Shown piece by piece: positions 11,905 to 32,459 of a stretch of 64,000 bases of DNA; positions within the stretch are counted from its first letter, which is position 1, and each line of letters begins with the position of its first letter. The notes under the pieces are model-generated. The model was given only the letters and a program-made list of their open reading frames with translations. It was not told the DNA's origin and did no database searches. A program made the translations under genes and the position numbers. Source of the stretch: an uncultured Bacilli bacterium (GTDB lineage: Bacteria; Bacillota_I; Bacilli_A; RFN20; CAG-449). The DNA is taken from the NCBI GenBank assembly GCA_947629415.1, contig CANRDP010000001.1, positions 11,290 to 75,289 of the forward strand, written 5' to 3'.

Positions 11905-11933
11905 TTGACAATAAAAAACGAAAAGAATATGTT
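11905..11933 (+). promoter_or_regulatory. Promoter of the SGNH-lipoprotein operon
   Basis: TTGACA at 11905-11910, a 17-nt spacer, TATGTT at 11928-11933. Confidence 0.35.
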
Positions 11934-11939
11934 AGAAAT

Positions 11940-12000
11940 GTAAGTGAAAGCACTTACAATTAATTTTTAAGGATATTTATGAACTATGTTCGGATATACG
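11940..12000 (+). promoter_or_regulatory. Bipartite conserved operator or leader motif, copy 1
   Basis: GTAAGTGAAAGCACTTAC (7-bp inverted repeat with a 4-nt centre) lies at 11940-11957, 6 nt after the -10. TTATGAACTATGTTCGGATATACG lies at 11978-12000. Near-identical copies occur at 15090-15149 and 20012-20067. Confidence 0.55.
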
Positions 12001-12063
12001 GATTAATTGATATCTTTTTGTTCTGTTGTTCATAAATGCCATGAAAGGATTAGGAAAGAAAAA

Positions 12064-13161
12064 ATGAAAAAAAGATTATTAGTTTTATCGTTAGCAGGTG
12101 TCGTGCTTTTCGGATGCAATAATGAAATTGTTGATTCGCAATCTGCAACATCAACGGGGGGGGGTACTTCGTCGGTAGGTACCACTTCACAAAATGCATC
12201 TTCAAGCAGTAATTCAGTAGTATCGGAAGGAAATAGTACTTCATCAAGTTCTTCGGTGTCTTCAAGTTCTTCTGTATCTTCAAGTTCTTCGGAAAGTTCC
12301 TCTTCACAAAGTTCTTCAGAAGAAGCGAAACAACAAGCTACCACAGTTTATCTTTTAGGAGAACAAGTTGCGGCAAAAGTAGATATGAAACCAAGCTCTA
12401 CCAATTATAAGTATTATTATCCAGCTAAGGGATTTGGAGAAACTTTGCCGGATTATTTTAACGAAAATGTAACTTTTAAGAATTTATCTGCGAATCAAGG
12501 CAGCGTTAATTCATATACATTCCCAACTGATGCAAAAACTAGTGAAGGATATAATGATTATGTGGCAAATTTGAAACAAGGAGATTATGTCTTAATTTCA
12601 TTTGGTATTAATGATCGAAAAATAGATACGAGCAAAAATCTGAATGGTGTTGCGTTAGGAACGGAAGAAGGACAATTTCAATATAATTTAACAAAATATG
12701 TAAACGAAGCTAAAAGCAAAGGAGCAACTCCGATCTTATTAACACCTTATGTATCTTATGATAGTAGTAAAAAATATGAAGCAAATAGTAAATATCTTTA
12801 TAACAAAGCAGAAACCAAGGCACACGAAGGAAATTATCCTCAGGCCATTCGCGATTTGGCGGAAGAATTAGATGTTATGTGTATAGATAATACTACTTGG
12901 ACAGCGGATTTATTTAGAAGTGCTCCTTCCGATGAAGACGTTCAAAAGTGGTATTGTTGGAAAAACTCTGAGGCAGATGGAAAACTGATGACAAATACAT
13001 TTAATGCCTATGGCGCACAGAAAATTGGTTATCATATTGCTGATGTATTGAAAAATAGTCAAAATGCTCTAGGAAAGTACATTAAGGATGATATTGAAGA
13101 TCCGACAGAAGCAGAATATTTAATAGCAAATACAGAAAATTATGTTAAAAGTAATAGTTAA
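12064..13161 (+). CDS. SGNH/GDSL-fold lipoprotein, a catalytically inactive paralog (CE12 RGAE-like pseudoenzyme)
   Basis: Lipobox signal MKKRLLVLSLAGVVLFGC followed by a 60-aa Ser-rich linker. It is homologous to the downstream gene, but GDS is replaced by GEQ (VYLLGEQVAAK) and DGTH by DGKL, so the nucleophilic Ser and the His are both lost. The track start at 12007 was rejected because ATG 12064 has an RBS. Confidence 0.6.
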   Translation: MKKRLLVLSLAGVVLFGCNNEIVDSQSATSTGGGTSSVGTTSQNASSSSNSVVSEGNSTSSSSSVSSSSSVSSSSSESSSSQSSSEEAKQQATTVYLLGEQVAAKVDMKPSSTNYKYYYPAKGFGETLPDYFNENVTFKNLSANQGSVNSYTFPTDAKTSEGYNDYVANLKQGDYVLISFGINDRKIDTSKNLNGVALGTEEGQFQYNLTKYVNEAKSKGATPILLTPYVSYDSSKKYEANSKYLYNKAETKAHEGNYPQAIRDLAEELDVMCIDNTTWTADLFRSAPSDEDVQKWYCWKNSEADGKLMTNTFNAYGAQKIGYHIADVLKNSQNALGKYIKDDIEDPTEAEYLIANTENYVKSNS

Positions 13162-13179
13162 TAAAAACAAAGGAAAAAT

Positions 13180-14910
13180 ATGAAAAAAAAGAAATTACTT
13201 GTTTTATCATTGACGAGCTTTGCTCTATTCGCTTGTGGAAATACAGGAGAAACGAGTGCAACAACATCCTCTGTTGCATCATCTTCAGTTTCTTCAAATA
13301 GCGAAAATGACAGTAGTTCTCAAACGAGTTCATCCGTTGAACCATTAAAGGCTACGACATTGTATATGATTGGTGATTCCACTTGTGCGAATTATGACTT
13401 AGCGACAAAAAATACAACGTATTACTACCAAATTCAAGGTTTCGGAACAACAATCAAAGATTATTTCAAAAAAGAAGTAACGGTTAAAAATCTTGGTGTT
13501 GGTGGTGCTTCTACAAAGAGTTTCCCAACGGAAGATAAGTCGAAAGAAAATTATGCGGAATTTAAAAATAATGTAAAAGCAGGGGATTATGCGATTATTA
13601 CTTTTGGGCATAATGATGAAAAGAAAACAGCTGTTGGTACACAGCTAGGAACGATTGCAGATACAATTACAAGCGATACGTTCCAAGGATATCTTTATTC
13701 CAATTATATTAAGGTATGTCTTGATGCCGGTGCTACACCGATTCTTGCTACACCTATTGCGCGTTATGATAGCAAAGGAAATTGGGAAGAAGGCACTAAG
13801 TACTTACATGTAATGACGGAAGATTCAACTTTCAATGCAGGGGATTATGCTCAAGCTATTCGTGATGTGGCTGAAAAATATTCCCTAACTTGTATTGATA
13901 CAACCAAAATGACAGGAGATGCTTTAAGAGCCCTAGGAGCGGAAGAGGGTAAAAAATGGTATGGTTGGCCAACTTCCACATCTTATGATGGTACGCATGT
14001 CAATATTTATGGAGCACAACAAGTGGGTTATATGATGGCAAAAACATTGAAGGAATCCACAAATAATTTAGGAAAGTATGTCGTAGATGATTTAAAAGCA
14101 CCGACAGAAGCAGAATATTTAAAACAAAATCCTTCATATGTTGAACCGACATATATAGCACCGGGAGAAGGAACATGGTCTAGCCATTGGAATACGACAA
14201 ATAATTGGCATGGATCTGTTTTCGGAGGAATGAAAAAAAGTAGTTTTGCCAAAGAACTCGATAAATACTCTATCACGGAAAATGGTGGAACATCCGCGGA
14301 TGGAACATTAAGTGTCACTTTAGCAGATACGGATCCTAATTACTCGGGAAGATTGAATTCGACTGCCGACGGAATGGTGATGTATTTCCAACAAATCAAC
14401 AAAAATGATTCATTTACTTTGGAAGCAAGCGTGAAAATCGATGACTTGACGAGTGATGCGGTACGACAACAGCAGAATGCTGTGGGTATTATGGTTCGTG
14501 ATGATATGTATATTGATCAATACATTTCTGGTTTGACTTCTCGTTATGCCGCGGCAGGATATTACGGAACAGCTTTTGATGAAGCCGGATCGTATACATA
14601 TTGTGCTTGGGCAAGAAGATATGATGATACGAATACAACCGAAGGAAAAAAAGATAGAATTAAAGAATCGTATTATCCTAAAGAAAATAGCACGATTGAT
14701 GTAAAGATTGTAAAAAATGATACTTCTGTTCAAACATATTACAAACTAGCTACGGATTCTCAATATCAAGAAGGACAATCTTTTGATACCGATTTAGAAT
14801 TAACAGCTGTGGATTCGGATTATGTCTATGCAGGTCTCTTCCTCTGCGGAGGAGCAGGAATGACGGCAACCTTTACGAATGTGAAGTTAACAATCAATCC
14901 TGTTGAGTAA
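13180..14910 (+). CDS. SGNH/GDSL esterase lipoprotein (rhamnogalacturonan acetylesterase/CE12-like) with a C-terminal beta-sandwich extension
   Basis: Lipobox LFAC. The SGNH blocks are intact: I MIGDSTCANY, II LGVGGAST, III FGHNDEK, V DGTHVN. A C-terminal domain of about 250 aa has unknown function and could be a carbohydrate-binding module (CBM). Confidence 0.6.
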   Translation: MKKKKLLVLSLTSFALFACGNTGETSATTSSVASSSVSSNSENDSSSQTSSSVEPLKATTLYMIGDSTCANYDLATKNTTYYYQIQGFGTTIKDYFKKEVTVKNLGVGGASTKSFPTEDKSKENYAEFKNNVKAGDYAIITFGHNDEKKTAVGTQLGTIADTITSDTFQGYLYSNYIKVCLDAGATPILATPIARYDSKGNWEEGTKYLHVMTEDSTFNAGDYAQAIRDVAEKYSLTCIDTTKMTGDALRALGAEEGKKWYGWPTSTSYDGTHVNIYGAQQVGYMMAKTLKESTNNLGKYVVDDLKAPTEAEYLKQNPSYVEPTYIAPGEGTWSSHWNTTNNWHGSVFGGMKKSSFAKELDKYSITENGGTSADGTLSVTLADTDPNYSGRLNSTADGMVMYFQQINKNDSFTLEASVKIDDLTSDAVRQQQNAVGIMVRDDMYIDQYISGLTSRYAAAGYYGTAFDEAGSYTYCAWARRYDDTNTTEGKKDRIKESYYPKENSTIDVKIVKNDTSVQTYYKLATDSQYQEGQSFDTDLELTAVDSDYVYAGLFLCGGAGMTATFTNVKLTINPVE

Positions 14911-15054: not shown

Positions 15055-15083
15055 TTGACTTTCAACCGAATTTGCTTTAAGAT
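15055..15083 (+). promoter_or_regulatory. Promoter of the GH105-like operon
   Basis: TTGACT at 15055-15060, a 17-nt spacer, TAAGAT at 15078-15083. Confidence 0.4.
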
Positions 15084-15089
15084 AAGAAT

Positions 15090-15149
15090 GTAAGTGTAAG
15101 CACTTACAAATTTATTTATACAAACTTATGAACAATGTTCGGATATACG
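15090..15149 (+). promoter_or_regulatory. Bipartite conserved operator or leader motif, copy 2
   Basis: GTAAGTGTAAGCACTTAC at 15090-15107 lies 6 nt after the -10. TTATGAACAATGTTCGGATATACG lies at 15126-15149. Confidence 0.55.
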
Positions 15150-15173
15150 AATTTGTGCAAAAGAGGAGAGTAG

Positions 15174-16373
15174 ATGAAATTCTTGGAAAAAGAAATTGAA
15201 ATGAACCTGGAATCATATATTACGGATTTATGTATTCGTTCTACTTATGAAAGACCTCTTTGGAATCAGGAAATATTGATGGGATTAAAAAAACCCGGTT
15301 GGAATTATATTGATGGTTGCATGTTCAATGGGTTATTAAGTCTTTATGAGGAGAATCATAATGATAAAATTATCGAATATATTGATCATTATATATCTCC
15401 ATTGATTGATGAAAACGGATATATAAAGATTTATTATTACAATAATTATAATCAATATACTGAAGAAGGACATGATTCGGATCCATGCAATGAAGGAAAA
15501 GTTCTTTTTACTTTATATGAAAAAACGCATAAAGAAAAATATCGTAAGGCAATTGAATTTCTTCATAAACAAATCGAAGAATTACCGAGAATCCAAGGAA
15601 ATTTTTGGCATAAAGAAAAATATCCCAATCAAATCTGGCTGGATGGATTATATATGATTCAACCTTTTTATGCTATGTATGAAAAGAAGTTTAATTGTGA
15701 AAGAAATTTCAATGATATTGTTTATCAATTAGAAAATTGTTTTGATTTGACCTTTGATAAAAAAACTTCTTTAATGATGCATGGATATGATGGAAATTAT
15801 TTAGATAGCAAAGAAAAGATGATATGGTCTAAAGAAAAAAACGGGCAATCAAAGATTGCTTGGCTCAGAGCTTGCGGATGGTATGAAATGGCTCTTGTGG
15901 ATACTTATGAATATATCAATCAACCAAGATTACAAAGTAAATTAAAAAATCTGTTACAAATTACAATCGATGGATTGATGAAGTATAAAGTAAAAAATAC
16001 GGATATGTTCTATCAAGTCATTGATAAAAAGAAAAAAGCAGGAAATTATTTTGAAACTTCCGGATCACTCATGATTGCATATGCGATTTTAAAAGGGTGT
16101 CGACTTAAGATGCTGACGAAGCGATATCAAGAAATGGGATTACGTATCTTCCGCGGAGTACTGAAAAAATATTTTTATAGGGGAAAAGATGATAAATTTC
16201 ATTTGGGAGGTATATGCATTGGGGCAGGGCTATCGGCGTCGAAAACCGATCGGAATGTTGGAACATATCGAATGTATATTTCTCGAAAAGTGGTTCAAGA
16301 TGATGGAAAAGCCATTGGACCTCTGATGATGGTATTATCAGAAATACATAGAATGGAAAAGGAGAGTGTATGA
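15174..16373 (+). CDS. Glycoside hydrolase family 105/88-like (unsaturated rhamnogalacturonyl/glucuronyl hydrolase), cytoplasmic
   Basis: 399 aa with no signal peptide. The (alpha/alpha)6 Glyco_hydro_88-type motifs WNYIDGCMFNGLL, IWLDGLYMIQPFYAMY, HGYD and AWLRACGWYEMALVDTYEY resemble YteR/YesR and UGL. Confidence 0.55.
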   Translation: MKFLEKEIEMNLESYITDLCIRSTYERPLWNQEILMGLKKPGWNYIDGCMFNGLLSLYEENHNDKIIEYIDHYISPLIDENGYIKIYYYNNYNQYTEEGHDSDPCNEGKVLFTLYEKTHKEKYRKAIEFLHKQIEELPRIQGNFWHKEKYPNQIWLDGLYMIQPFYAMYEKKFNCERNFNDIVYQLENCFDLTFDKKTSLMMHGYDGNYLDSKEKMIWSKEKNGQSKIAWLRACGWYEMALVDTYEYINQPRLQSKLKNLLQITIDGLMKYKVKNTDMFYQVIDKKKKAGNYFETSGSLMIAYAILKGCRLKMLTKRYQEMGLRIFRGVLKKYFYRGKDDKFHLGGICIGAGLSASKTDRNVGTYRMYISRKVVQDDGKAIGPLMMVLSEIHRMEKESV

Positions 16374-17890
16374 TGAAAAAACGATTCTTATTTTTAACGG
16401 GAGTATTGTTATCTCTTTGTGCCTGTGGGGGAACGAATTCCGAGATCCCCGAATCGCATCTTCGATTTAATAATATTGCAATCCGCGAATCCAAACTTGT
16501 AGCCGGTGCCATTGATGTTTTTGTTGAAACACTGGATAAAGATGTCGATATCTATTATCTTTTTGTGGATCATGAGGCAAAAGCACCTGCAGTTTCTCAA
16601 ATCATAGAGGGAAAAGACTATGATGGGGTGAAAGTATTGAGTTATGGTTCCGAAAAAGATATGGTTTATAAAACAGTCACCGGTTTTGATGAATTGGCAT
16701 GGATTGATTTTTATTGTGTACTTCAACAGGAAAATAAAATTTCGGATATCTATTCGACAAGCGTTATGACATTAGATGCTAAAGGCGTAGAAGATAAAGG
16801 AGATGGTACATTAGAAAATCCTTATCGTATATACACTGTAGAAGATTTAGAACAGGTAGGAGCAGAAAGTAGTACATTAAGTGCTTATTATGAACTTCAA
16901 AATGATCTGGATTTGAGTGCTTTTTACGGAGAAGAAAAAAAATCCTTTACACCTATAGGGACGCAAACGGGATCTGCGAAGGCATTTAATGGATCGTTTA
17001 ACGGAAAAGGATATACGATTTCCAATCTTTATATTAATTCAACTTCCGAATCTACAGGATTGTTTGGACAATTAGGTGCAGACGGAGTAATTTCTAATCT
17101 AAATATTGAAAATGCAAAAGTATATTCCACACAACAACGTACGGGTATTGTTGTAGGATACTCCAAGGGTACTGTGGCTAATATCAATGTAATCAACGGA
17201 ACGATTCATGGAACAAGAAAAGTCGGCGGTGCCATCGGAGATGTTTATGAAACAGGTCTTTGCAATCGTATTTTTGTAAAAGATACTTATGTCAAAGGAA
17301 CCGGTGATGATGTCGGTGGTTTAATCGGATGTGTTGATGCTACGGCAGGAGATACAAATCCTATTGAAGTTAAAAATAGTTATGCTATAGCTACGGTAGA
17401 AGGAACTAAGTATGCCGGGGGATTCATCGGATATGCCCGATGCATGCTTATTGATGGTTGCTATGCAATGGTAAATATTACCGGTACAGAAGGTGTCGGT
17501 GCTTTTATTGGAATGGCTCAACATCGTAGCGGTTCTCCGGTTCAACCGAAAGTTTCGAATTGCTTTGCTTTAAAAGGGCATGCCGAAGGAACATCGAATG
17601 CGGGAAAATTCTTTGGTAATTTTTCAACTTCCAATGGAGGTGTAGATACTTCAAAGATTTATTATAGTCAGATTACTCTTACTGCACCAACGGATAAAAC
17701 GGGTAATTATGGCCAGGAAATCACTTGGTTTAATTCTAGTAATGAATTGAAAGCATGGATAGAAAATACACAAAATATTCAACTGGATTTTGAATATTCT
17801 TGGGAAATTCAGGAAAATGCTTTGCGACCTACTCTGAAAAATTCGAAAGCATATGATGACGGAGTCACGATGAGCATAGGAGGAGAATAA
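16370..17890 (+). CDS. GLUG-motif right-handed beta-helix lipoprotein
   Basis: Lipobox LSLCAC. Conserved module GDGTLENPYRIYTVEDLEQVG...FNGSFNGKGYTISNLYINS, followed by repeated GG(L/I)(I/A)G turns (VGGAIGDV, VGGLIGCV, AGGFIGYA, VGAFIGMA). A paralog lies at 35246-37018. Confidence 0.5.
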   Translation: MMKKRFLFLTGVLLSLCACGGTNSEIPESHLRFNNIAIRESKLVAGAIDVFVETLDKDVDIYYLFVDHEAKAPAVSQIIEGKDYDGVKVLSYGSEKDMVYKTVTGFDELAWIDFYCVLQQENKISDIYSTSVMTLDAKGVEDKGDGTLENPYRIYTVEDLEQVGAESSTLSAYYELQNDLDLSAFYGEEKKSFTPIGTQTGSAKAFNGSFNGKGYTISNLYINSTSESTGLFGQLGADGVISNLNIENAKVYSTQQRTGIVVGYSKGTVANINVINGTIHGTRKVGGAIGDVYETGLCNRIFVKDTYVKGTGDDVGGLIGCVDATAGDTNPIEVKNSYAIATVEGTKYAGGFIGYARCMLIDGCYAMVNITGTEGVGAFIGMAQHRSGSPVQPKVSNCFALKGHAEGTSNAGKFFGNFSTSNGGVDTSKIYYSQITLTAPTDKTGNYGQEITWFNSSNELKAWIENTQNIQLDFEYSWEIQENALRPTLKNSKAYDDGVTMSIGGE

Positions 17891-17891
17891 A

Positions 17892-19904
17892 ATGAAAAAG
17901 ATATGGAAAAAAGGTTTAATTATTGTTTCATTGACAACGATACTTCCTTTCGTGTCTTGTAACGCAAATCAAGAAAATTCGAATGCTTCTACTTCGGAGA
18001 ATACAAGTGAATCAACGGAAGTAAAAACAAATTTTGAAATTGTTAAAGAATTTATGGATTCATTTTCCATTGATAATTCGGATGCGATTATTCAAAATAT
18101 TTATTTGCCGAAAAAATTTGCTTTGGAAGGAGTTGTCACATGGCAAAGCAGTGAACCGAAAGTTATCACCAGTGAAGGTCATGTGACACGAAATAAGGAA
18201 AAAGATGTTCCGGTTACTTTAACGGCTATTGCTATGTTAGGATCTACAAGAGAACAACGAGTGTATCATGTAGTAGTAAAAAAAGTAAATGAAACTGCCG
18301 AAGGCAAAATTGATGAAGCGATGTCTCAGTTTACTTTACTGGAAAACAACACGATTGACCGCGATATTATGGTTCTTCCTCGTGTCACAGATATTAATGG
18401 CGTTTATATTACTTGGGAAACTTCCGATGCTTCCATTATTGATTTAAAGGGAAATGTTTATCGGGGGAATGAAGAAAAGAAAGTGACTTTGACTGGAACT
18501 TTCTCTTATGGAGAATATCGTAAGAAAAAATCCTTTGAAATCGTTGTACAGACAAAGGCCGACGACAGTATTCCTGTGATCGATGAAAATGATTCTCGAA
18601 TTTTAAATAAAGTGTATGTCGCCAGTGTCGTGGATATTGTTACCGCGGGATTGGATGCTAGACCAGGTGATGCTATTATCTTAAGAGATGGTACTTATAT
18701 GAATGTGGAGTTTAATATTGAACGCTCCGGCACAGCAGAACATCCTATTTTCATTTTTGCCGAACATCCTGGAAAAGTGATTTTAAGTGGAGAATCAAGA
18801 ATCAATATTCTGGCAGATTATGTTATTGTCGCAAATTTCCGATTTGAAAACGGCTATCCTTCTAAAGATAGTGGTGTGGTTAATCTTGAAGGAAATCATC
18901 TGCGCTTTACAAACAATGTTATCAAAGAATACGAAATCCATGAAAATGATTACAAATGGTTATCTTTAAGAGGAAGATTTCATGAGATCGATCGAAATAC
19001 TTTTGATGGCAAAACGACCGGAGGATCTTTGTTAACCATTTGGAGAGATGATATGTTCTCTCAGGATCACCACATTCATCATAATCAATTCTTGAATTAC
19101 CAAGAAGCCGGAGGTGCCAATGGATATGAAACCATTCGTGTCGGCACATCTACTTATTCACAAACGGATTCCAATGTTTTGATCGAAAATAATCTATTTG
19201 AAAATATTTCCGGAGAAATTGAAATTATTTCCATTAAATCAGGAAGAACGATTGTACGTAATAATACCTTTAAAACCTGTAAGGGTCTTGTTACCGCACG
19301 TCATGGAAAAAATGATTTGATTGAAAACAATGTCTTTCTTTGTGGGCGTGAAAAAAGTGATGGTTCCATTGAACGTATTGATGATACCGGAGGCATTCGT
19401 ATGTATGATGCCGGACATGTTGTCCGTAATAATTACATGCAGGATGTCGAAACTTCTTCCAACACCCGTGCGGGAATTGTCGTACATTCGGGAGTGAACG
19501 ATTATGGTGATACAACCGTCATGAATCTCCAGTGGACTCCGTTTAATGTCTTGATTCAGGATAATACGATTATTAATAGCCGCAACAGCATTTTGATTGG
19601 AGGAAAATATAGTATTCCGTGCAAAGATGTTACTTTTGATAATAATCTTGTTGTTTCACCAACCTATGGTGCGATACGCTATGATAAAAATCCTGTAAAT
19701 CCCACTTGGATCAATAATCATTTCTATGCACCTACTTACTTAGAAAGTAATAGTGCGTTTAAAGATGTAATAGCTCCCGATTGGTTTTCAACGGCGATAC
19801 CGCAACTGATTAAAGGAGAAAACGGATTATATAAAATAGCAGAAAATTACGGCGCTTCTAATCTCACGGTTCAAACCAGTGAGACTACAGGAACAAATTA
19901 TTAA
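17892..19904 (+). CDS. Polysaccharide lyase lipoprotein with a PL6-like parallel beta-helix and two N-terminal Ig-like repeats
   Basis: Lipobox PFVSC. The motif GEIEIISIKSGRTIVRNNTFKTCKGLVTARHGKNDLIENNVF matches the PL6 (chondroitinase B/AlyP) catalytic region, with the Lys of IKS and the Arg of RHG conserved. Two roughly 90-aa repeats precede the helix. Confidence 0.5.
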   Translation: MKKIWKKGLIIVSLTTILPFVSCNANQENSNASTSENTSESTEVKTNFEIVKEFMDSFSIDNSDAIIQNIYLPKKFALEGVVTWQSSEPKVITSEGHVTRNKEKDVPVTLTAIAMLGSTREQRVYHVVVKKVNETAEGKIDEAMSQFTLLENNTIDRDIMVLPRVTDINGVYITWETSDASIIDLKGNVYRGNEEKKVTLTGTFSYGEYRKKKSFEIVVQTKADDSIPVIDENDSRILNKVYVASVVDIVTAGLDARPGDAIILRDGTYMNVEFNIERSGTAEHPIFIFAEHPGKVILSGESRINILADYVIVANFRFENGYPSKDSGVVNLEGNHLRFTNNVIKEYEIHENDYKWLSLRGRFHEIDRNTFDGKTTGGSLLTIWRDDMFSQDHHIHHNQFLNYQEAGGANGYETIRVGTSTYSQTDSNVLIENNLFENISGEIEIISIKSGRTIVRNNTFKTCKGLVTARHGKNDLIENNVFLCGREKSDGSIERIDDTGGIRMYDAGHVVRNNYMQDVETSSNTRAGIVVHSGVNDYGDTTVMNLQWTPFNVLIQDNTIINSRNSILIGGKYSIPCKDVTFDNNLVVSPTYGAIRYDKNPVNPTWINNHFYAPTYLESNSAFKDVIAPDWFSTAIPQLIKGENGLYKIAENYGASNLTVQTSETTGTNY

Positions 19905-19977: not shown

Positions 19978-20005
19978 TTGACAAAAATGGTGGATATGCT
20001 AGAAT
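19978..20005 (+). promoter_or_regulatory. Promoter of the transporter and lyase operon
   Basis: TTGACA at 19978-19983, a 16-nt spacer, TAGAAT at 20000-20005. Confidence 0.45.
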
Positions 20006-20011
20006 GGAAGC

Positions 20012-20067
20012 GTAAGTGAAAGCACTTACAAATTTTTTAAAGATATATCCGAACTTTGTTCGGATAT
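20012..20067 (+). promoter_or_regulatory. Bipartite conserved operator or leader motif, copy 3
   Basis: GTAAGTGAAAGCACTTAC at 20012-20029 lies 6 nt after the -10. A perfect 10-3-10 palindrome ATATCCGAAC-TTT-GTTCGGATAT lies at 20045-20067. Confidence 0.6.
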
Positions 20068-20102
20068 ATGGAAAAGTATTCAGAATTTCTTGAGGAGGAT
20101 GG

Positions 20103-20657
20103 ATGGATTTAAAAAAAGCAGACTTGATTATCTTTTCGTTTTTATCAATATTATTTGAATTTTTATCAAGCTATTTCTTCAATTTTCTGAATAGTGGATT
20201 TATCTTAAGCTTTTCCTTGTTGATTTTTCTTATTATGGCTCTTCGATGGGGAATAATGGGAATTGTACCTTTCTTACTTTCTGCGCTTCCATTAATTGCA
20301 ATGGAAAAGTCCATGGAATTATGGCAAAGCATTCTCTATTATCTTGTTGCGAATGTTTTCGCGGTAATTCCCATAGGTTGCTATACTCTTTTTTGCAAAG
20401 GGAAGAGTAGAAATGTGATGATTCAATCACCGGTATATCTTATTTTATTTTCTTTAGCGACATTTCTCAGTTTAGCTATTGGAAAATGGATTGCATGCAT
20501 CATCATAAATCAAGATGTTGCATCAATTGGAGGATATTTTATTTCTATGATATTTACGTATATTTTGACCATTCTTGTTTTATACGCATTATCAAGATTA
20601 AAAAATTCTATTGTAGCGGATATGGATTCTTATAGAAATGATGGAGAGGAGGTGTAA
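20103..20657 (+). CDS. Integral membrane protein, possibly a YesL/DUF624-like accessory to the CUT1 ABC transporter
   Basis: 184 aa with about 5 TM helices, first gene of the operon directly upstream of LplB/LplC-type permeases. The family assignment is a context-based guess. Confidence 0.3.
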   Translation: MDLKKADLIIFSFLSILFEFLSSYFFNFLNSGFILSFSLLIFLIMALRWGIMGIVPFLLSALPLIAMEKSMELWQSILYYLVANVFAVIPIGCYTLFCKGKSRNVMIQSPVYLILFSLATFLSLAIGKWIACIIINQDVASIGGYFISMIFTYILTILVLYALSRLKNSIVADMDSYRNDGEEV

Positions 20658-20659
20658 TC

Positions 20660-21625
20660 ATGAATGATATGATAAAGATGAGAGAACCCAAAGGTAAAAA
20701 AATTCTTAAAGGAATCAAAAAGGAATGGCAGTTATATCTTTTACTTATTCCCATTATTCTTTGGTTTTTGTTCTTTGCTTATAAACCCATGATTGGTTTA
20801 ATTGTCGCTTTTGAGCGTTTTGAACCTGCAGAAGGAATTTTCGGCAGTGATATGCGAGGTCTTTCGAACTTTGTCAACATTGTTACAGGTGTTAACCGAG
20901 AAGCATTTTGGGGAGCCTTTAGAAATACATTCATCATTAGTTTATATGGATTGGTTTTTGGATTTCCCATACCAATAATTTTGGCGCTTTTATTCAGCGA
21001 AATCAGAAGTGACGGATATCGAAAGATTTTGCAAACCATTACTTATCTTCCTCATTTTCTTTCTGAAGTTACCATTACGGGTATTGTCATTACCTTGGTC
21101 TATAGTGGAGTGAGTTCTACAGGTATTGTTGCTCAACTGCTTTATTCCCTGAATCTCGTACCTGCGGGAACGAAAATCATTGAAACGCCAAACTATTTTC
21201 GACCAATGTATATCATTACCGGTATCTGGAAAGAATCGGGATATAATTCTATCGTCTATTTTGCGGCAATCATGGGAATTTCCCCTGTCATGTATGAAGC
21301 CTTAAAAGTAGATGGTGGAAATAAATGGCAGGAAATCCGTTATGTTACGCTTCCTGGAATGGCCCCTACACTCATCATCATGATTATTATGAGAATAGGT
21401 CGTATGTTATCTGTCGGTTATGAACGAGTGTTGTTGCTCTATCATCCGAATACCTATGTTACCGCGGATGTTTTGTCTACTTTAGAGCAAAGAATCGGTA
21501 TTGGTACCGGTTCAAATCAAGGTCTTGGTTCGGCTATCGGTATTTTTAATTCCGTCATTGGTTTTGCTTTGGTTATCAGTGCCAACAAAATCTCACGACA
21601 GATTTCAAAGACCTCACTATGGTAA
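20660..21625 (+). CDS. Carbohydrate ABC transporter permease, LplB/YtcP/YesP family (CUT1)
   Basis: N-terminal ..YLLLIPIILWFLFFAYKPMIGLIVAFERF.. is typical of LplB. The EAA-like loop is EALKVDGGNKWQ. Confidence 0.75.
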   Translation: MNDMIKMREPKGKKILKGIKKEWQLYLLLIPIILWFLFFAYKPMIGLIVAFERFEPAEGIFGSDMRGLSNFVNIVTGVNREAFWGAFRNTFIISLYGLVFGFPIPIILALLFSEIRSDGYRKILQTITYLPHFLSEVTITGIVITLVYSGVSSTGIVAQLLYSLNLVPAGTKIIETPNYFRPMYIITGIWKESGYNSIVYFAAIMGISPVMYEALKVDGGNKWQEIRYVTLPGMAPTLIIMIIMRIGRMLSVGYERVLLLYHPNTYVTADVLSTLEQRIGIGTGSNQGLGSAIGIFNSVIGFALVISANKISRQISKTSLW

Positions 21626-21646
21626 GTTGAAAGATTGGAGGAAATT

Positions 21647-22516
21647 ATGGAAAGATCAAGTAAAAGTGAAATCGTATTCCGCGTTTTTTCGTACTTTTTT
21701 GTAACTATTTTTGCCATTTTATGTCTTTATCCCATCATCTATGCTTTCAGCGTATCTATCAGTGGAAAACTTGCCTATGAATCAGGACAGATTGTCTTTT
21801 TCCCAAAGGATTTGCAAATAGAGGCCTATCGAATTGTATTATTTGATAAAGGGTTCTGGATTTCTTATACGAACACACTATTCTATACCATTTTCGGTAC
21901 TGCATGGAGCATGTTCATCTCATTAACCGGTGCATATGTTCTTTCGAAAGACAAATTGTTAGGTAAAAGAACATGGAACTTTTTGCTCGTCTTTACAATG
22001 TGGTTCAGTGCAGGTATGATACCTCTTTATTTAAATTACATGGAATTGGGTGTGGATAACAAATGGGGTATGGTTATTGCTTTTGGTGTACAAGCTTATA
22101 ACATTATTCTTTTAAGAAATGCATTTTCGTCTGTACCGAAAGATATTGAAGAAGCGGCAAGGATGGATGGATCCAGTGAAATACAGATTTTTACAAAAAT
22201 TTATATGCCTATGTCGAAAGCGGCAATTGCCACTGTGACCTTGTTTTATGCAATTAGCCGTTGGAATGGTTATTATTGGTCCAGAATGCTGCTCAGAAAT
22301 TCACAAGAACAGCCACTTCAAGTGTATCTGAGAACGTTAATAGAAAATTATCAAAAACTTTATGATGAATCCGTTGTGGCTGGAAACCTGACTTATGCAG
22401 CCGATAGTTTGGTTTATGCGATCATCATCTGCTCTATCATTCCCGTGCTTGTAGTATATCCTTACATTCAAAAATACTTCACACGTGGCGTGAATTTAGG
22501 CGGAGTCAAAGGCTAG
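21647..22516 (+). CDS. Carbohydrate ABC transporter permease, LplC/YesQ family (CUT1)
   Basis: EAARMDGSSEIQIFTKIYMPMSKAAIATVTLFYAISRWNGYYW parallels the LplC EAA region. ATG 21647 lies 5 nt after GGAGG. Confidence 0.75.
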   Translation: MERSSKSEIVFRVFSYFFVTIFAILCLYPIIYAFSVSISGKLAYESGQIVFFPKDLQIEAYRIVLFDKGFWISYTNTLFYTIFGTAWSMFISLTGAYVLSKDKLLGKRTWNFLLVFTMWFSAGMIPLYLNYMELGVDNKWGMVIAFGVQAYNIILLRNAFSSVPKDIEEAARMDGSSEIQIFTKIYMPMSKAAIATVTLFYAISRWNGYYWSRMLLRNSQEQPLQVYLRTLIENYQKLYDESVVAGNLTYAADSLVYAIIICSIIPVLVVYPYIQKYFTRGVNLGGVKG

Positions 22517-22527
22517 AAAGGAAAACT

Positions 22528-24603
22528 ATGAAAAAAATATTTTTAGGAGCAATTGTTGCAGCATCGACTTTTATTTCGTTAGCATCCTGTAACAATTCCG
22601 AAACACCAAATAGTTCTACATCTATAAGTGTTGATCTTACAACAAATATTGAATTGAAACTAAATATGGCCTACGGTAATAAGGATCAAACCGTGACATA
22701 TCAAAAATCCAATCCATTAACATTACCAGATAATACAGTTATCACTCAGGGTAGTTTGAAACCCTTCTGGAGTTATCTTGGGAAACAAACCAATACGACG
22801 TTTAAAGATATTACCATTCAATCTCAAAAAGCTTCTGAAATGATTACGACCTCTGCTGCAACCGGATTTACCGATGCAGATATTTACGGAGGAAATAGTA
22901 TTGCAGAATCTTTAATGAGCTATGGTGTGCAAAAAAAATTCGCTAACTTAACCGAAATGATGAATCAAGGATTGATGCCTCATGTGAAGGCATATTTAGA
23001 TGCAAATCCAAGTTTCAAATCGGCTATTACAGCTTATGATGGAAATATCTATCATCTTCCGTATATTGCCGAAGTCGGTGAATTTGCTCGTGATTATCAC
23101 ATGCGTGAAAGCTGGGTAACCAGTTTATTAGATAATACGGGTGGAAAATCATATGATACCGATACAACGCTTACGACATATTATAAAGGATTTTGGGTTG
23201 GAAATAATGCACGTACAGGAAATAACGGCGGAACCGTCACTCCAAAAGAAGGCGTGAATATCACTAAAAAGACAAATCAGAATATCATTACTTTGATGAA
23301 TGCTTTGCCAAGTAAAAATGGACAAGCCTTGGCCGAATGTTTAAAAACATATATTCAGAATAATTATGATTATACAAAGGCAAGCGAACTCTATTTAGGA
23401 GAAAAAGCGGCTTACGATATCGATGAACTTGTCGCTTTATTCCGTGTTATCAAAGCAAATCCAAAATTCTTAACAAGTGGAAAAGCAGATACGGTATGGC
23501 CCTACTTTACAAGACAATCTTCTTATCGAGAAGAATTATTACGATTTGCCACATATTTCGGTGGCGTTCGAGTTCATGGATCCGACTCATATTCTGCACG
23601 ATGGGAAATCGATGCAAATGGTCAAATTCAATATACATATACAAAAGAAGAACTCTACAATATATTGAATTATTTATCCGATTGGAATGCCGAAGGATTG
23701 ATTTTTACCGATACTTATGATTCCAACAATAAGAATAATTTCCGTAATCAACTATATTTTGCCGACAATGCGGAAAATGCGAAATTTGGATTTATGACAT
23801 TTGATTTTACGGCTTCAACTACTGCGGATGGCGGAGCAAATGAACCGGCAAGAGATATCGTTGGTGTTTTGCCTCCTGTATCTAAAGTCAATGGTGTATG
23901 GCAGTATTACATTGATAATTCTCGTGTTATCAAACCGGATGGTTGGGCAATTTCCAATCAATCTAGCGATGCTAAGAAACAAAGAGCTGCCGTAATCTTT
24001 GATTACTTCTTCACAGAAGAGGGTGCGGTTTTACAAAATTATGGTCTACCTCAAATGTTGAAAACAGATGAAAAATTCACCGGTCCTGATGGGAAAGAAG
24101 TACCTGCATATAATGACTGGACCTTACAAACAACAAAAGAAATGGCCAATGGTGACTTATCTACGTTCCTTCGTAATTTTATCGGTGCATTGATGCCTGT
24201 GGGTTATGCTAAAGAAATCGGATTTGAATATCAATATACTTCAGAACGTGGATTCAATGCTTGGAAATTATTGCAAAATTCCACTACGAATATACCTTCT
24301 TATGCCGGTACCGGACTTCAAGGAGATAATCCGAATTACTATAAACTCATTCCACCTGTTTTCTCTTTAACGGAAAGACAAACGGAAACATTACAAAATG
24401 ATACGACAATCAATTCAGATAACTCCTTGTTTGAAGTAATCTTTAACATTATTCGATACAAAACTCGAAATGATGCTCCAGCAAGTGTCAAATTACCTGC
24501 AGATTACAATGCATACTATAAGTTATTCCAAGATGCCGGAATTGAAACTTATATCTCAACGTATCAAGCAGCATATCAAACAATGCAGGCATTAAATAAA
24601 TAA
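22528..24603 (+). CDS. Extracellular solute-binding lipoprotein of the ABC transporter (LplA/YesO-like, enlarged)
   Basis: Lipobox SLASC. The 691-aa family-1 sugar-binding protein follows the two permeases. Confidence 0.6.
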   Translation: MKKIFLGAIVAASTFISLASCNNSETPNSSTSISVDLTTNIELKLNMAYGNKDQTVTYQKSNPLTLPDNTVITQGSLKPFWSYLGKQTNTTFKDITIQSQKASEMITTSAATGFTDADIYGGNSIAESLMSYGVQKKFANLTEMMNQGLMPHVKAYLDANPSFKSAITAYDGNIYHLPYIAEVGEFARDYHMRESWVTSLLDNTGGKSYDTDTTLTTYYKGFWVGNNARTGNNGGTVTPKEGVNITKKTNQNIITLMNALPSKNGQALAECLKTYIQNNYDYTKASELYLGEKAAYDIDELVALFRVIKANPKFLTSGKADTVWPYFTRQSSYREELLRFATYFGGVRVHGSDSYSARWEIDANGQIQYTYTKEELYNILNYLSDWNAEGLIFTDTYDSNNKNNFRNQLYFADNAENAKFGFMTFDFTASTTADGGANEPARDIVGVLPPVSKVNGVWQYYIDNSRVIKPDGWAISNQSSDAKKQRAAVIFDYFFTEEGAVLQNYGLPQMLKTDEKFTGPDGKEVPAYNDWTLQTTKEMANGDLSTFLRNFIGALMPVGYAKEIGFEYQYTSERGFNAWKLLQNSTTNIPSYAGTGLQGDNPNYYKLIPPVFSLTERQTETLQNDTTINSDNSLFEVIFNIIRYKTRNDAPASVKLPADYNAYYKLFQDAGIETYISTYQAAYQTMQALNK

Positions 24604-24614
24604 AAAAGGATTGT

Positions 24615-24638
24615 GGTAGGGGGAGTTTTCTCCCTACC
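24615..24638 (+). other. Intra-operon hairpin without a U-tract
   Basis: GGTAGGGGGAG-tttt-CTCCCTACC. It could be a processing or stability element; it is not a clear terminator. Confidence 0.3.
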
Positions 24639-24666
24639 AATTCCTCATTGATAGTGAGATGATTAT

Positions 24667-25221
24667 ATGAAAAAATTAGTAAAATGTTTCAAATTTCAAA
24701 AAGTGATGTTTGTTGTCCAAATTTTGATGATCGTAATAACTTTTATTTCGGCCTTATCTTTCATGACACAATATGCCAATCTTTTTGGGCTCGAACTTCC
24801 ATTAAATCAAAGTATTATTGACTTTCATAATCATATGCAAAACTTCAATAAAACATGGGTATACCTTTCCATTGTAAGTCTTGTTTCTATTATTGCGATG
24901 TTTTTCTTAGAAACACAAAAAAGAGTTGCTGATCGTTTTGCTTTGATTGTTATGGGTATCTTTATTGCCATTGCTATTGCAACGGCTGTTTATGTTATTG
25001 TCAATACGATGAGTTTATTGCAAGAATATCAACAGGTAGATTTTACTTATATTTATTTGGAAGCTCCGGAATTGGCCGATTATCAATTGCAATTTGAAAC
25101 CTTTTATCTTGTTTTCATCGTTCATATCGTCGCCATTATAACTTTTATAGGATATTTTGTAAGTCTGTTACTTTCTCATATCCTTTATGTAAAAGAGAAA
25201 GGAGAACAAAATGCTCAGTAA
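24667..25221 (+). CDS. Hypothetical polytopic membrane protein
   Basis: 184 aa with 4-5 predicted TM helices and no recognisable motif. Confidence 0.4.
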   Translation: MKKLVKCFKFQKVMFVVQILMIVITFISALSFMTQYANLFGLELPLNQSIIDFHNHMQNFNKTWVYLSIVSLVSIIAMFFLETQKRVADRFALIVMGIFIAIAIATAVYVIVNTMSLLQEYQQVDFTYIYLEAPELADYQLQFETFYLVFIVHIVAIITFIGYFVSLLLSHILYVKEKGEQNAQ

Positions 25222-26008
25222 TCAAGCATTGGAGGAAAAGATCCTTAAGTGTCAGAAAACGATGGACGAAGCCAAAAAAACGGATGATGCCATTGCTTCT
25301 TCTTCTATAGAACATATAGATGAAACACTTCCCAGTCGGATTCAAAAAACTTTAAAGAAAATTCAAGAAAAATATGTATCTGCTAAAAGCGATAAACAAA
25401 AAGAGCAGGCTATGAGCACTTTTCAAATCTATAAGGATAAAGTGGCTTATCAGACAAAAAAAATTTTGGTAAATGCTCGATTTGATATGCATCGTTATGA
25501 AAGCATGAAGGAATGGAATCAACAAGAGGATGATGTTAAAGAAGAACAAAAAATAAATTTGACCTTTTATAAGGCCAATGTATCCAGTTATTGGCTTACT
25601 TTATCTGTTATCCTAGTTACTTTAGTTTATTTGGTTGAAATGTTATCCATGATGGAAAGAACTTTTTGGATTGGTATATTCATTCTCATCAATATCGCCT
25701 TTTTGCTCTTCTTATTTACAGCAGCGATTAAATTAAAGAATTATATTAAACTTTTCAGTTATCTTATATTTGCTTTTGGTATTTATACCATTCTGAGAAT
25801 AGGAGTCATTGTTCCTTTTATCTTGAATGTATCTCTTTTACCAACTGCGGATGATGCGAATTTTATGGCTAAAATAGTAATCATTCTGGTCAATATTTAT
25901 TCTTGTATTGTTTCTTTTTATATAGGTATTTCCTCTTTAAGAAAAGTGAAAAAACAAGAGCAATATATCAAAGAAGGTAAAATTACCTTCCATCAATTGT
26001 CAAAGTAG
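25211..26008 (+). CDS. Hypothetical membrane protein with a charged N-terminal cytoplasmic domain
   Basis: 265 aa: about 110 aa of K/E-rich soluble sequence, then about 4 TM helices. It overlaps the upstream gene by 11 nt. Confidence 0.4.
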   Translation: MLSNQALEEKILKCQKTMDEAKKTDDAIASSSIEHIDETLPSRIQKTLKKIQEKYVSAKSDKQKEQAMSTFQIYKDKVAYQTKKILVNARFDMHRYESMKEWNQQEDDVKEEQKINLTFYKANVSSYWLTLSVILVTLVYLVEMLSMMERTFWIGIFILINIAFLLFLFTAAIKLKNYIKLFSYLIFAFGIYTILRIGVIVPFILNVSLLPTADDANFMAKIVIILVNIYSCIVSFYIGISSLRKVKKQEQYIKEGKITFHQLSK

Positions 26009-26016
26009 GTAATCAT

Positions 26017-27111: not shown

Positions 27112-27113
27112 GT

Positions 27114-27635: not shown

Positions 27636-27638
27636 TTC

Positions 27639-28169: not shown

Positions 28170-28170
28170 T

Positions 28171-32448: not shown

Positions 32449-32459
32449 GAGGAGATGAA

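What the first reader, a model, noticed from the sequence alone, without database searches (positions are those of the whole stretch)
11905..12000. Conserved bipartite palindromic motif immediately downstream of the -10 at three carbohydrate operons (copy 1 of 3)
Three operon starts (11940-12000, 15090-15149, 20012-20067) carry the same architecture. A sigma-A-like promoter is followed 6 nt after the -10 by GTAAGTG-nAAG-CACTTAC, a perfect 7-bp inverted repeat with a 4-nt centre. A second element lies 46-48 nt downstream: the invariant right arm GTTCGGATATA(C/T)G, preceded by a GAAC-containing left arm, with the start codon 35-65 nt later. The fixed spacing and near-identity across three unrelated first genes (SGNH lipoprotein, GH105-like, DUF624-like/ABC transporter) argue for a dedicated operator pair at the TSS, a conserved 5'-leader RNA with two hairpins, or both. 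The first element also embeds a 13-of-14 match to the Bacillus cre consensus (TGWAANCGNTNWCA), with the central CG replaced by CA. The second element loosely resembles KdgR-type half-sites (TGAAAC-N-GTTTCA) with shortened GAAC/GTTC arms, and an IclR/KdgR-like regulator is encoded in the locus at 34386-35171. I do not recognise this exact motif as a described regulon signature.
Basis: seen in the sequence. Interest (0 to 1): 0.72.

Follow-up and report, generated by a model that had tools for sequence, protein, structure and literature searches.

The report
Paired repressor sites on pectin operons
Three sugar-polymer-degrading operons of an uncultured wall-less gut bacterium (Anaeroplasma relative) each start with the same two DNA sites, most likely a catabolite-repression (CcpA-type) site on the transcription start and a binding site for the locus's own IclR-type regulator, which is an ordinary control scheme seen here in a little-studied lineage.

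Summary
Three promoters (about 11905, 15055, 19978) are each followed exactly 6 nt after the -10 by GTAAGTG-WAAG-CACTTAC. GAAC-N3-GTTCGGATATAYG follows 46-48 nt later. The flanks have diverged and the two elements have not.

Element 2 fits described IclR-family operators: GTNCG-N6-CGNAC plus a third alternating box. In more distant Anaeroplasmataceae the same 16-mer (consensus RTTCGNATATACGRAY, 22 sites) lies upstream of the -35 of the GH88 promoter, so there it is not in that gene's leader. This argues for a DNA site. An IclR gene restricted to this clade sits in the regulated operon.

Element 1 carries the half-sites predicted for the Acholeplasma laidlawii CcpA homologue (TTGTAAGNNCTTACAA). 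Its inner 14-mer matches cre at 13/14, and its loop varies as cre positions 3-6 (WAAN). Its 8-nt-gap outer palindrome resembles the published flexible "crevar" architecture.

A 5'-terminal mRNA hairpin role for element 1 is not excluded. Hairpins with G·U pairs recur at +1/+2 in relatives. No Rfam family matches, and the three leaders share no fold for element 2.

Verdict: a global-plus-local operator pair, a new member of known kinds. No binding protein was tested. Interest is low to moderate.

The parts
11905..11933 (+). Promoter of operon 1 (TTGACA-17-TATGTT).
   Evidence: The predicted TSS is at 11940, using the 6-nt -10-to-TSS spacer typical of Mollicutes (PMC5138195).
11939..11958 (+). 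Element 1, copy 1: TGTAAGTG-AAAG-CACTTACA. The inner cre-like 14-mer is at 11945-11958.
11981..12003 (+). Element 2, copy 1: the three-box IclR-type site GAAC-TAT-GTTCGGATATAC-GGAT.
   Evidence: motif classes.
12064..14910 (+). Operon 1: two SGNH/GDSL esterases. The first is a lipoprotein.
15055..15083 (+). Promoter of operon 2 (TTGACT-17-TAAGAT).
15089..15108 (+). Element 1, copy 2: TGTAAGTG-TAAG-CACTTACA. The inner TGTAAG-CA-CTTACA is at 15095-15108.
   Evidence: (1 mismatch to TTGTAAGNNCTTACAA).
15130..15152 (+). Element 2, copy 2: GAAC-AAT-GTTCGGATATAC-GAAT.
   Evidence: (0 mismatches to TTCGNATATNCGAA).
15174..19904 (+). Operon 2: GH88/GH105 unsaturated uronyl hydrolase, a 506-aa protein of unknown function, and a polysaccharide lyase (Chondroitinase_B / Pel9A-like).
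19978..20005 (+). Promoter of operon 3 (TTGACA-16-TGnTAGAAT).
   Evidence: 11 of 12 hexamer positions, with an extended -10.
20012..20029 (+). Element 1, copy 3: GTAAGTG-AAAG-CACTTAC, with 7-bp arms.
20043..20073 (+). Element 2, copy 3: ATATATCCGAAC-TTT-GTTCGGATATAT-GGAA. Boxes 1 and 2 are extended here to a perfect 12-bp inverted repeat.
20103..39135 (+). Operon 3: ABC sugar transporter, heparinase II/III-like lyase, KdgF-like cupin, KduD-like SDR, alginate-lyase-fold protein, IclR regulator, and beta-helix proteins. It may continue to 43873.
   Evidence: A terminator-like hairpin at about 39140-39200 may end the unit.
34386..35171 (+). IclR-family regulator, the candidate protein that binds element 2.
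   Evidence: Pfam IclR_C 3e-34 and HTH_IclR. Homologues are few: 26 proteins at E<=1e-20, of which the closest one that carries a source name is Anaeroplasma bactoclasticum and the weaker ones bear other names. The three orthologues looked up sit at the same place in the operon.

Best explanation
Each of the three operons has a sigma-A-type promoter followed by two DNA operators.

**Element 1 (+1 to about +20).** This is a cre-type site. Its half-sites TGTAAG/CTTACAA are those predicted for the CcpA homologue of Acholeplasmatales. The inner 14-mer TGWAAG-CA-CTTACA has the canonical 2-nt gap. An extra upstream TGTAAG makes a 20-bp palindrome with an 8-nt gap, resembling the 'crevar' architecture. 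A bound CcpA-type (LacI-family) dimer on the start site would block initiation or promoter escape when a preferred sugar is present (inferred).

**Element 2 (about +42 to +64).** This is a three-box IclR-family operator, GAAC-N3-GTTCG-N6-CGRAY. It is most likely bound by the IclR protein encoded inside operon 3, which would therefore be autoregulated. That protein would act as a roadblock or repressor until a uronate-derived inducer releases it (inferred).

**Shown versus inferred.** Shown are the sequences, their positions, their conservation within and between species, the position of element 2 upstream of the GH88 -35 in relatives, and the co-occurrence with the IclR gene. The identity of both binding proteins, the direction of regulation and the inducer are inferred.
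For: **Selective conservation.** Both elements are invariant among three promoters whose other parts have diverged. They are retained, with variation, in three to six related species.

**Element 2.**
- 22 sites give the consensus RTTCGNATATACGRAY.
- At up to 1 mismatch, the core is almost confined to the Anaeroplasma-clade loci among those scanned. It gives only 2 hits in all the other Firmicutes loci.
- In L045, L046, L047, L049, L052 and L057 the site lies about 25 nt upstream of the -35 of a near-consensus GH88 promoter. A degenerate second copy follows, 19 nt centre-to-centre. This suggests a DNA site rather than part of that gene's leader.
- It fits published IclR motif classes: GTNCG-N5-6-CGNAC, three-box sites with alternating direction, and tandem sites 18-22 nt apart (PMC8222616). 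L043 carries a perfect GTTCGTATATACGAAC.
- The IclR gene has few homologues (26 proteins; the closest one carrying a source name is Anaeroplasma bactoclasticum). It is syntenic inside the element-2-preceded ABC operon in L130-L132.
- L052 has an IclR paralogue with a similar recognition helix between the ABC operon and GH88, with sites on both sides.
- The three leaders fold element 2 in three different ways.

**Element 1.**
- The only matches in the window to TTGTAAGNNCTTACAA at up to 2 mismatches are the three copies. That motif is the predicted site of the A. laidlawii CcpA homologue (PMC5138195 supplementary Table 4).
- The inner 14-mer matches cre at 13/14. L043 has a 14/14 cre at the same place.
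- All 7 cre-like hits (up to 1 mismatch) that lie outside genes in about 220 kb of clade loci sit in these operon promoters (one, at L044:6746, was scored coding by the script's crude mask but lies in the leader upstream of the called gene). The 11 hits inside genes are spread over about 205 kb.
- Loop variation among species (A/T-A-A-N) follows cre positions 3-6.
- cre-like boxes lie upstream of, or over, the -35 in L052 and L045.
- A variable gap between TGTAAA/TTTACA-type arms is documented for CcpA (PMC5263246).
Against: **No binding data.** No binding protein was tested.

**CcpA not demonstrated here.**
- No CcpA or LacI-family gene is present in the window or in about 220 kb of clade loci. 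Its presence is known only from the literature on Acholeplasma.
- The A. laidlawii motif is itself a computational prediction.

**Departures from canonical motifs.**
- The central CG of canonical cre is CA in all three window copies.
- The family-wide IclR consensus is too degenerate to be significant by itself in this AT-rich DNA. KTYCRYW4RYGRAM gives 46 hits against 56 expected. GTNCG-N6-CGNAC gives 5 against 5.9 expected.

**Support for an RNA reading of element 1.**
- Element 1 always starts at +1/+2.
- Its stem keeps pairing through G·U in relatives (L043, L044, L057).
- The arm spacing varies (6, 8, 9, 11, 15 nt).

**Position.** An operator at +42 to +64 is an unusual position for simple promoter occlusion.
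Confidence: 0.62

Rival explanations
1. Element 1 works as RNA. Because transcription starts at its first base, the mRNA begins with a 7-8-bp stem-loop. That stem-loop protects the transcript from 5'-end-dependent decay (RNase J / 5' sensing), or serves as a protein-binding 5' hairpin. Its DNA palindromy is then a by-product. Element 2 is still an IclR operator. This reading can coexist with the best explanation.
For: - The predicted TSS is the G of GTAAGTG in all three copies (6-nt spacer rule).
- The hairpin is stable on its own at -6.5 kcal/mol, z = -5.6.
- Hairpins start at +1/+2 in the ABC-operon leaders of L044, L045, L047 and L057. Their loops and apical sequences differ, with z from -2.6 to -4.2. 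L057 has a 10-bp stem with three G·U pairs.
- Every non-Watson-Crick opposition inside these stems is G·U on the sense strand. One pair changes T-A to T·G to C-G across species.
Against: - The arms keep their sequence, not just their pairing, and that sequence equals the CcpA-type half-site.
- The loop is constrained to WAAN, as in cre.
- L052 has no hairpin but has a cre-like box upstream of the -35.
- The G of two of the G·U pairs creates the canonical CG centre of a cre (L043, L044).
- The sample is small and the sequences are related.
- Covariation counts cannot tell a DNA palindrome from an RNA stem.
- There is no Rfam match.
Confidence: 0.25
2. Both elements are parts of one structured leader RNA, a riboswitch-like or attenuator leader. 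It would have a 5' hairpin and two alternative hairpins (box 1:box 2 versus box 2:box 3) that switch expression.
For: - Box 2 can pair with either box 1 or box 3.
- In L044:6776-6803 all three boxes change together (CGGAA/TTCCG/CGGAA) and both pairings are kept.
- The leaders fold better than shuffles, with z from -2.8 to -4.4.
- The scan flags element 1 as terminator-like, with a T-rich tail.
Against: - The same 16-mer is upstream of the GH88 -35 in six lineages.
- The three leaders of one genome adopt three different MFE folds around element 2.
- There is no terminator or SD-sequestering helix common to the copies.
- The distance from element 2 to the SD varies from 24 to 63 nt.
- The T-run after element 1 is separated from the stem by 2-6 A/T bases, and the stem is weak.
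- The three-box alternating arrangement is a described property of IclR sites.
- There is no Rfam hit.
Confidence: 0.06
3. Element 1 is the operator of a pathway-specific regulator encoded elsewhere in the genome, not of the global CcpA homologue. This could be a LacI-family KdgR/ExuR-like protein or another HTH family.
For: - Pathway-specific LacI-family regulators are generally reported to have cre-like operators (general knowledge, not checked here).
- The central CA, the extra half-site and the 20-bp palindrome are not typical cre features.
- In the available sequence the motif is seen only at this locus.
Against: - No such regulator gene is in the 64-kb window or next to the locus in any relative.
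- The half-sites match the site predicted for the Acholeplasma CcpA homologue.
- Only a small part of the genome could be searched, so locus restriction is not established.
Confidence: 0.12
4. The similarity is only the trace of a recently duplicated promoter cassette and has no specific function.
For: The three copies share order, spacing and orientation.
Against: - The flanks, the -35/-10 hexamers and the inter-element spacer have diverged, while the two elements are identical.
- Both elements persist in other species at 60-75% protein identity.
Confidence: 0.02

Closest known systems
cre sites of CcpA, including the site TTGTAAGNNCTTACAA predicted for the CcpA homologue ACL_RS05870 of Acholeplasma laidlawii (PMC5138195)
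   Same: - The half-sites TGTAAG/CTTACAA are the same.
- The inner site has the same 2-nt centre.
- It sits on the transcription start of carbohydrate-utilisation operons in the same bacterial order.
   Different: - The centre is CA, not the CG of Bacillus cre.
- A third half-site (TGTAAG) 6 nt upstream makes a perfect 20-bp palindrome.
- CcpA itself was not found in the sequence available.
crevar, the flexible CcpA site TGTAAA-Yx-TTTACA of Clostridium acetobutylicum (PMC5263246)
   Same: - Two 6-bp inverted repeats are separated by a variable spacer. The published sol-20 site has 8 nt, as here.
- Spacer length differs between sites and between species (6-15 nt in relatives).
   Different: - The core is TGTAAG/CTTACA. 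It differs at the innermost position, which the paper found least critical.
- Binding has been shown only for clostridial and Bacillus CcpA.
IclR-family three-box operators (PcaU/PobR type; Suvorova & Gelfand 2021, PMC8222616), and KdgR as the functional analogue
   Same: - It has a GTNCG-N6-CGNAC palindrome plus a third box of alternating direction that forms a GAAC-N3-GTTC pair.
- Relatives have tandem copies 19 nt apart.
- The regulator gene is in the regulated uronate/pectin locus.
   Different: - The site-specific consensus is RTTCGNATATACGRAY.
- In this genome the site lies downstream of the start site (+42 to +64).
- The protein is only a distant family member, with no assigned orthology to KdgR.
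5'-terminal stabilising stem-loops of Firmicutes mRNAs (for example the ermC and aprE leaders; from general knowledge)
   Same: The hairpin begins at the first transcribed base. Its stability is similar to that of known stabilisers.
   Different: Known stabilisers are conserved as structure, not as sequence. Here the arm sequence and the loop pattern are conserved.

Membership tests
cre / CcpA (LacI-family) operator | 14-nt pseudo-palindrome TGWAANCGNTNWCA. | tested here: inconclusive
   The match is 13/14 in all three copies, with the central CG replaced by CA. The orthologous site in L043 matches 14/14. At up to 1 mismatch the window has 10 matches (5 sites, each read on both strands) against 6.8 expected, so the consensus alone is weak.
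cre / CcpA (LacI-family) operator | Match to the lineage-specific site of the Acholeplasmatales CcpA homologue (TTGTAAGNNCTTACAA). | tested here: met
   There are 1, 2 and 2 mismatches in 14 specified positions. These are the only matches at up to 2 mismatches in 64 kb. The motif comes from PMC5138195 supplementary Table 4.
cre / CcpA (LacI-family) operator | The site lies in or just downstream of promoters of catabolic operons. | tested here: met
   The site lies at +1 to +20 of three polysaccharide-utilisation operons.
cre / CcpA (LacI-family) operator | The genome encodes CcpA and HPr kinase, and the protein binds the site. | not testable with these tools
   The source genome is not in the searchable genome set. 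There is no LacI-family ORF in 220 kb of clade loci. The literature reports CcpA in Acholeplasmatales only.
crevar (flexible CcpA site) | Core inverted repeats TGTAAA/TTTACA with a variable spacer. | tested here: inconclusive
   TGTAAG-N8-CTTACA matches 5/6 + 5/6. The exact pattern TGTAAG-N0-20-CTTACA occurs 3 times in the window, at copies 1 and 2 only, against 0.03 expected. The spacer is 6-15 nt in relatives. Binding was not tested.
IclR-family operator | Palindrome of the GTNCG-N5-6-CGNAC / GKTYCRYW3-4RYGRAMC type. | tested here: met
   Window copies read GTTCG-N6-CGGAT, CGAAT and TGGAA (1, 1 and 3 mismatches to GTNCG-N6-CGNAC; copy 3 is not among the hits). L043 is perfect. The family consensus alone is not significant in this DNA.
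IclR-family operator | A three-box arrangement with alternating direction, or tandem sites 18-22 nt apart. | tested here: met
   GAAC-N3-GTTC-N8-GRAY gives 5 matches, including all three leaders, against 1.0 expected. In relatives, tandem copies lie 19 nt apart upstream of GH88.
IclR-family operator | A cognate IclR-family gene is in or next to the regulated locus and co-distributed with the motif. | tested here: met
   IclR lies at 34386-35171. It has few homologues, the closest named one being Anaeroplasma bactoclasticum, and the three looked up are syntenic. L052 has an IclR gene flanked by sites. The motif is almost confined to the same clade.
IclR-family operator | The protein binds the site, and an effector releases it. 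| not testable with these tools
   This needs EMSA or footprinting.
Cis-regulatory leader RNA (riboswitch, attenuator or antiterminator target) | Match to a described RNA family. | tested here: not met
   At Rfam gathering thresholds only the L10 leader at 1501-1613 matches. A permissive scan of 11800-20200 gives only chance hits to eukaryotic families.
Cis-regulatory leader RNA (riboswitch, attenuator or antiterminator target) | A common secondary structure in all copies, supported by covariation and always inside the transcript. | tested here: not met
   Element 2 adopts three different folds in the three leaders and lies upstream of the GH88 -35 in six lineages. For element 1 the stem is kept (98% of cells paired; 1 compensatory change and 2 G·U changes). 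This cannot be separated from DNA palindromy.
Intrinsic terminator / attenuator | A GC-rich stem immediately followed by a U-tract. | tested here: inconclusive
   The consensus scan flags the site. However, the stem has only 3 G-C pairs (-6.5 kcal/mol), and the T-run starts 2-6 nt after the stem.

The most novel reading that the evidence does not exclude
Element 1 is a composite three-half-site cre (TGTAAG-TGWAAG-CA-CTTACA). It lets the CcpA homologue bind in two registers, the canonical 2-nt gap or a crevar-like 8-nt gap. This mirrors the three-box logic of the neighbouring IclR site. Its transcript copy would at the same time be a +1 stabilising hairpin. The fixed 46-48-nt phasing of the two elements would reflect cooperative repression by the global and the local regulator.
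Probability: 0.15. Interest if true: 0.5.

Novelty: new member of a known kind. Interest (0 to 1): 0.3.

Why it matters
Anaeroplasmataceae are uncultured or barely studied wall-less gut and rumen anaerobes, and I found no description of their gene regulation in the paper searches made here. These sites give a concrete, testable regulon signature for a large pectin/uronate-polymer utilisation locus (consensus RTTCGNATATACGRAY plus a TGTAAG-type cre). They also give a candidate local regulator and a hint that CcpA-type catabolite repression operates in this lineage. The sites could be used to find further members of the regulon in metagenome-assembled genomes. The mechanism itself, a global cre plus a local repressor operator, is textbook for Firmicutes, so the result fills in a lineage and does not change a concept.

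Tried and rejected
- **Genome-wide regulon search.** I scanned 185,579 species genomes for GTAAGTGNAAGCACTTAC. It returned 36 hits, about the chance level, in unrelated taxa and without element 2. Six hits in Balneolaceae are the antisense of the 16S rRNA V1 helix. They added only about 8 kb of housekeeping genes, with no further sites.\n- **LacI/CcpA gene search.** phmmer with E. coli LacI against all ORFs of 220 kb of clade loci gave no hit. This is uninformative, because only a small fraction of any genome was covered.\n- **Match to the broad IclR family consensus as a statistical argument.** I rejected this, since it is no better than chance in AT-rich DNA. My first composite pattern was wrongly built.\n- **Covariation counting on a 7-sequence alignment.** Pairing is kept, but there are only 1-3 compensatory events, mostly from one sequence. 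A DNA palindrome gives the same signal, so the test is not decisive.\n- **Known RNA families.** Rfam gave none.\n- **Terminator reading of element 1.** I considered this because and rejected it as the main function: the stem is weak, the U-tract is detached, and the site lies at +1.\n- **Pfam scan of the unannotated small proteins of the locus for a hidden regulator.** None was found; no DNA-binding domain turned up among them.
Full report
**1. Observation**

- GTAAGTG-[A/T]AAG-CACTTAC is present without mismatch at 11940-11957, 15090-15107 and 20012-20029. There is no other match in 64 kb even with three mismatches, against a chance expectation of 0.04.
- GTTCGGATATAYG follows at 11988, 15137 and 20058.
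- A consensus scan puts promoter-like hexamers at 11905-11933, 15055-15083 and 19978-20005. Each ends exactly 6 nt before GTAAGTG.
- In mapped Mollicute promoters the commonest spacer from the -10 to the TSS is 6 nt, with G or A as the initiating base (PMC5138195). The predicted start is therefore the G of GTAAGTG.
- In the alignment of the three regions the two elements are invariant. The hexamers, the 20-22-nt spacer and the downstream leader have diverged. This pattern indicates constraint on the elements and argues against a recent copy.

**2. Context**

- The window runs from the ribosomal-protein/rpoBC cluster into a roughly 32-kb polysaccharide-utilisation locus.
- That locus encodes two SGNH esterases, a GH88/GH105 hydrolase, a Chondroitinase_B/Pel9A-like lyase and an ABC sugar transporter. 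It also encodes a heparinase II/III-like protein, a KdgF-like cupin, a KduD-like SDR, an alginate-lyase-fold protein, an IclR regulator (34386-35171) and beta-helix proteins.
- The IclR protein is the only transcription factor recognised in the window.
- The closest named homologues of the GH88 protein are from Anaeroplasmataceae / Anaeroplasma bactoclasticum MAGs. Identical proteins occur on ENA metagenome contigs that carry the same motifs.

**3. Element 2 is an IclR-type DNA operator**

*Relatives.* They were fetched through GH88 homologues.
- In the nearest species (L043, L044) the leaders keep the architecture GAAC-N3-GTTC-N8-GAAC. Examples are GAACGACGTTCGTATATACGAAC in L043 and CGGAA-GCA-TTCCG-CATATT-CGGAA in L044.
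- In six more distant lineages (L045, L046, L047, L049, L052, L057) the 16-mer GTTC[A/G]NATATNCGRAY lies about 25 nt upstream of the -35 of a near-perfect TTGACA-16/17-TATAAT promoter of the GH88 gene. It is followed 3 nt later by a degenerate second copy, 19 nt centre-to-centre. At those genes the site lies upstream of the proximal promoter; a weaker promoter-like match lies further upstream in L045 (read by eye), so transcription through the site was not strictly excluded.
- The ABC-operon leaders of the same lineages carry two copies.

*Consensus and distribution.*
- Twenty-two sites give RTTCGNATATACGRAY, with seven invariant positions.
- At up to 1 mismatch the core occurs in almost every Anaeroplasma-clade locus. 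It occurs only twice in all the other Firmicutes loci that carry a GH88 homologue.

*Fit to published classes.* The arrangement matches classes described for the IclR family in PMC8222616:
- a GTNCG-N5-6-CGNAC type palindrome;
- 'three-box' sites with boxes of alternating direction;
- tandem sites 18-22 nt apart.

*Caveat.* The family-wide consensus alone is not significant in this AT-rich DNA. The argument therefore rests on architecture, position and co-occurrence.

*Co-occurrence with the regulator.*
- The window's IclR protein has only 26 homologues at E<=1e-20. The closest one that carries a source name is Anaeroplasma bactoclasticum (47% identity); the weaker ones bear other names.
- The three orthologues looked up sit at the same place inside the ABC operon (L130-L132, including A. 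bactoclasticum). In this genome, and by synteny in its relatives, the regulator's operon is therefore preceded by element 2.
- In the human-gut relative L052, an IclR paralogue lies between the ABC operon and GH88 with sites on both sides. It is 38% identical and has a similar recognition helix, PKSS-F-I.

*RNA folding.* As RNA, the three leaders of this genome fold element 2 three different ways.

**4. Element 1: cre-type operator, with an RNA hairpin not excluded**

*Evidence for a cre-type site.*
- The inner 14-mer TGWAAGCACTTACA matches cre at 13/14.
- The orthologous L043 site is a 14/14 cre, TGAAAACGCTTACA.
- The transcription-network study of Mollicutes reports that Acholeplasmatales, unlike other Mollicutes, keep a CcpA homologue. 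It predicts that protein's site as TTGTAAGNNCTTACAA (PMC5138195). These are exactly the arms of element 1, and the centre is unspecified, so CA is allowed.
- The three copies are the only matches to that motif in the window at up to 2 mismatches.
- Among species the 'loop' varies as A/T-A-A-N, which is the pattern of cre positions 3-6.
- All 7 cre-like hits that lie outside genes in about 220 kb of clade loci are in the promoters of these operons (one of the 7, at L044:6746, was scored coding by the script's crude mask but lies in the leader).
- In L052 and L045 a cre-like box lies upstream of, or over, the -35.
- The outer palindrome TGTAAG-N8-CTTACA, and the variable arm spacing in relatives (6-15 nt), would argue against a rigid dimer. 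However, the same architecture (TGTAAA-Yx-TTTACA, including a 6+8+6 site) has been shown to bind CcpA in clostridia and Bacillus (PMC5263246).

*Evidence for an RNA hairpin.*
- The element always starts at +1/+2.
- Stable 5'-terminal hairpins recur in the ABC leaders of L044, L045, L047 and L057 with different apical sequences.
- All non-Watson-Crick oppositions in these stems are G·U on the sense strand.

*Limit of the evidence.*
- With so few related sequences, covariation counts cannot separate an RNA stem from a DNA palindrome.
- No CcpA gene could be looked for in the source genome.

**5. Mechanism proposed**

- A CcpA-type dimer on +1 to +20 gives catabolite repression.
- The operon-encoded IclR protein on the three-box site at +42 to +64 gives substrate-specific, autoregulated repression.
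- The transcript's 5' hairpin may additionally stabilise the mRNA.

Sequence, position, conservation and gene co-occurrence are shown. The binding proteins, the sign of regulation and the inducer are inferred.

**6. Comparison and novelty**

Both elements belong to described kinds of operator. What is new is the lineage, the site-specific consensus and the composite form of element 1. I rate the finding as a new member of a known kind, with low-to-moderate interest.

**7. Dead ends**

- The genome-collection scan returned only chance hits, including the 16S V1 helix of Balneolaceae.
- Rfam gave nothing.
- Extending the contig added no sites.

Noticed in passing
window 11826-11900 and 44050-44135: A roughly 30-nt identical block, AAGAAAAAAATAATATCAAAAAAA(A)TCGA, plus GACATGAAAAAAAAT occurs in two places. 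One is just upstream of the operon-1 promoter. The other is just past the end of the polysaccharide locus, upstream of gene 44185. These are direct repeats flanking the roughly 32-kb locus, which suggests island insertion or duplication of a promoter region.
   Followed up: partly
window 39135-39260: A long hairpin, AGTCATATCCGGATG...CATCCGGATAGACT, followed by a T-run lies inside the presumed third operon. Genes 39260-43873 (beta-helix protein, GDSL esterase, MsmK-like ATPase) may therefore form a fourth unit without either motif.
   Followed up: no
window 24603-24667: A strong GC-rich hairpin (GGTAGGGGGAG-TTTT-CTCCCTACC) lies right after the 691-aa gene that follows the two permease genes of the ABC operon (its function was not checked; no Pfam hit). 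It has no T-run. It may be an intra-operon mRNA-stability or processing element.
   Followed up: no
window 16370-17890, 20103-20657, 22528-24603, 24667-26008, 27114-30228: Many proteins of the locus (506, 184, 691, 184, 265, 173, 176 and 685 aa) have no Pfam match, although they are conserved in order across Anaeroplasmataceae loci. The 184-aa first gene of the ABC operon and a second 184-aa gene look like lineage-specific membrane components.
   Followed up: partly
L008, L014, L036, L039, L041, L042 (Gracilimonas/Balneola genomes): The exact 18-mer GTAAGTGCAAGCACTTAC recurs in Balneolaceae because it is the antisense of the V1 hairpin of their 16S rRNA. It is unrelated to the finding.
   Followed up: yes
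L052 8890-8935 (minus strand): Between the two IclR-type sites of the ABC-operon leader of the human-gut relative lies a GC-rich hairpin, GCAGGAT-TTA-ATCCTGC. It is absent from the window's leaders and its role is unknown.
   Followed up: no
window 1501-1613: A ribosomal protein L10 leader (Rfam RF00557, 45 bits against a threshold of 44) lies upstream of rplJ. This is ordinary.
   Followed up: no
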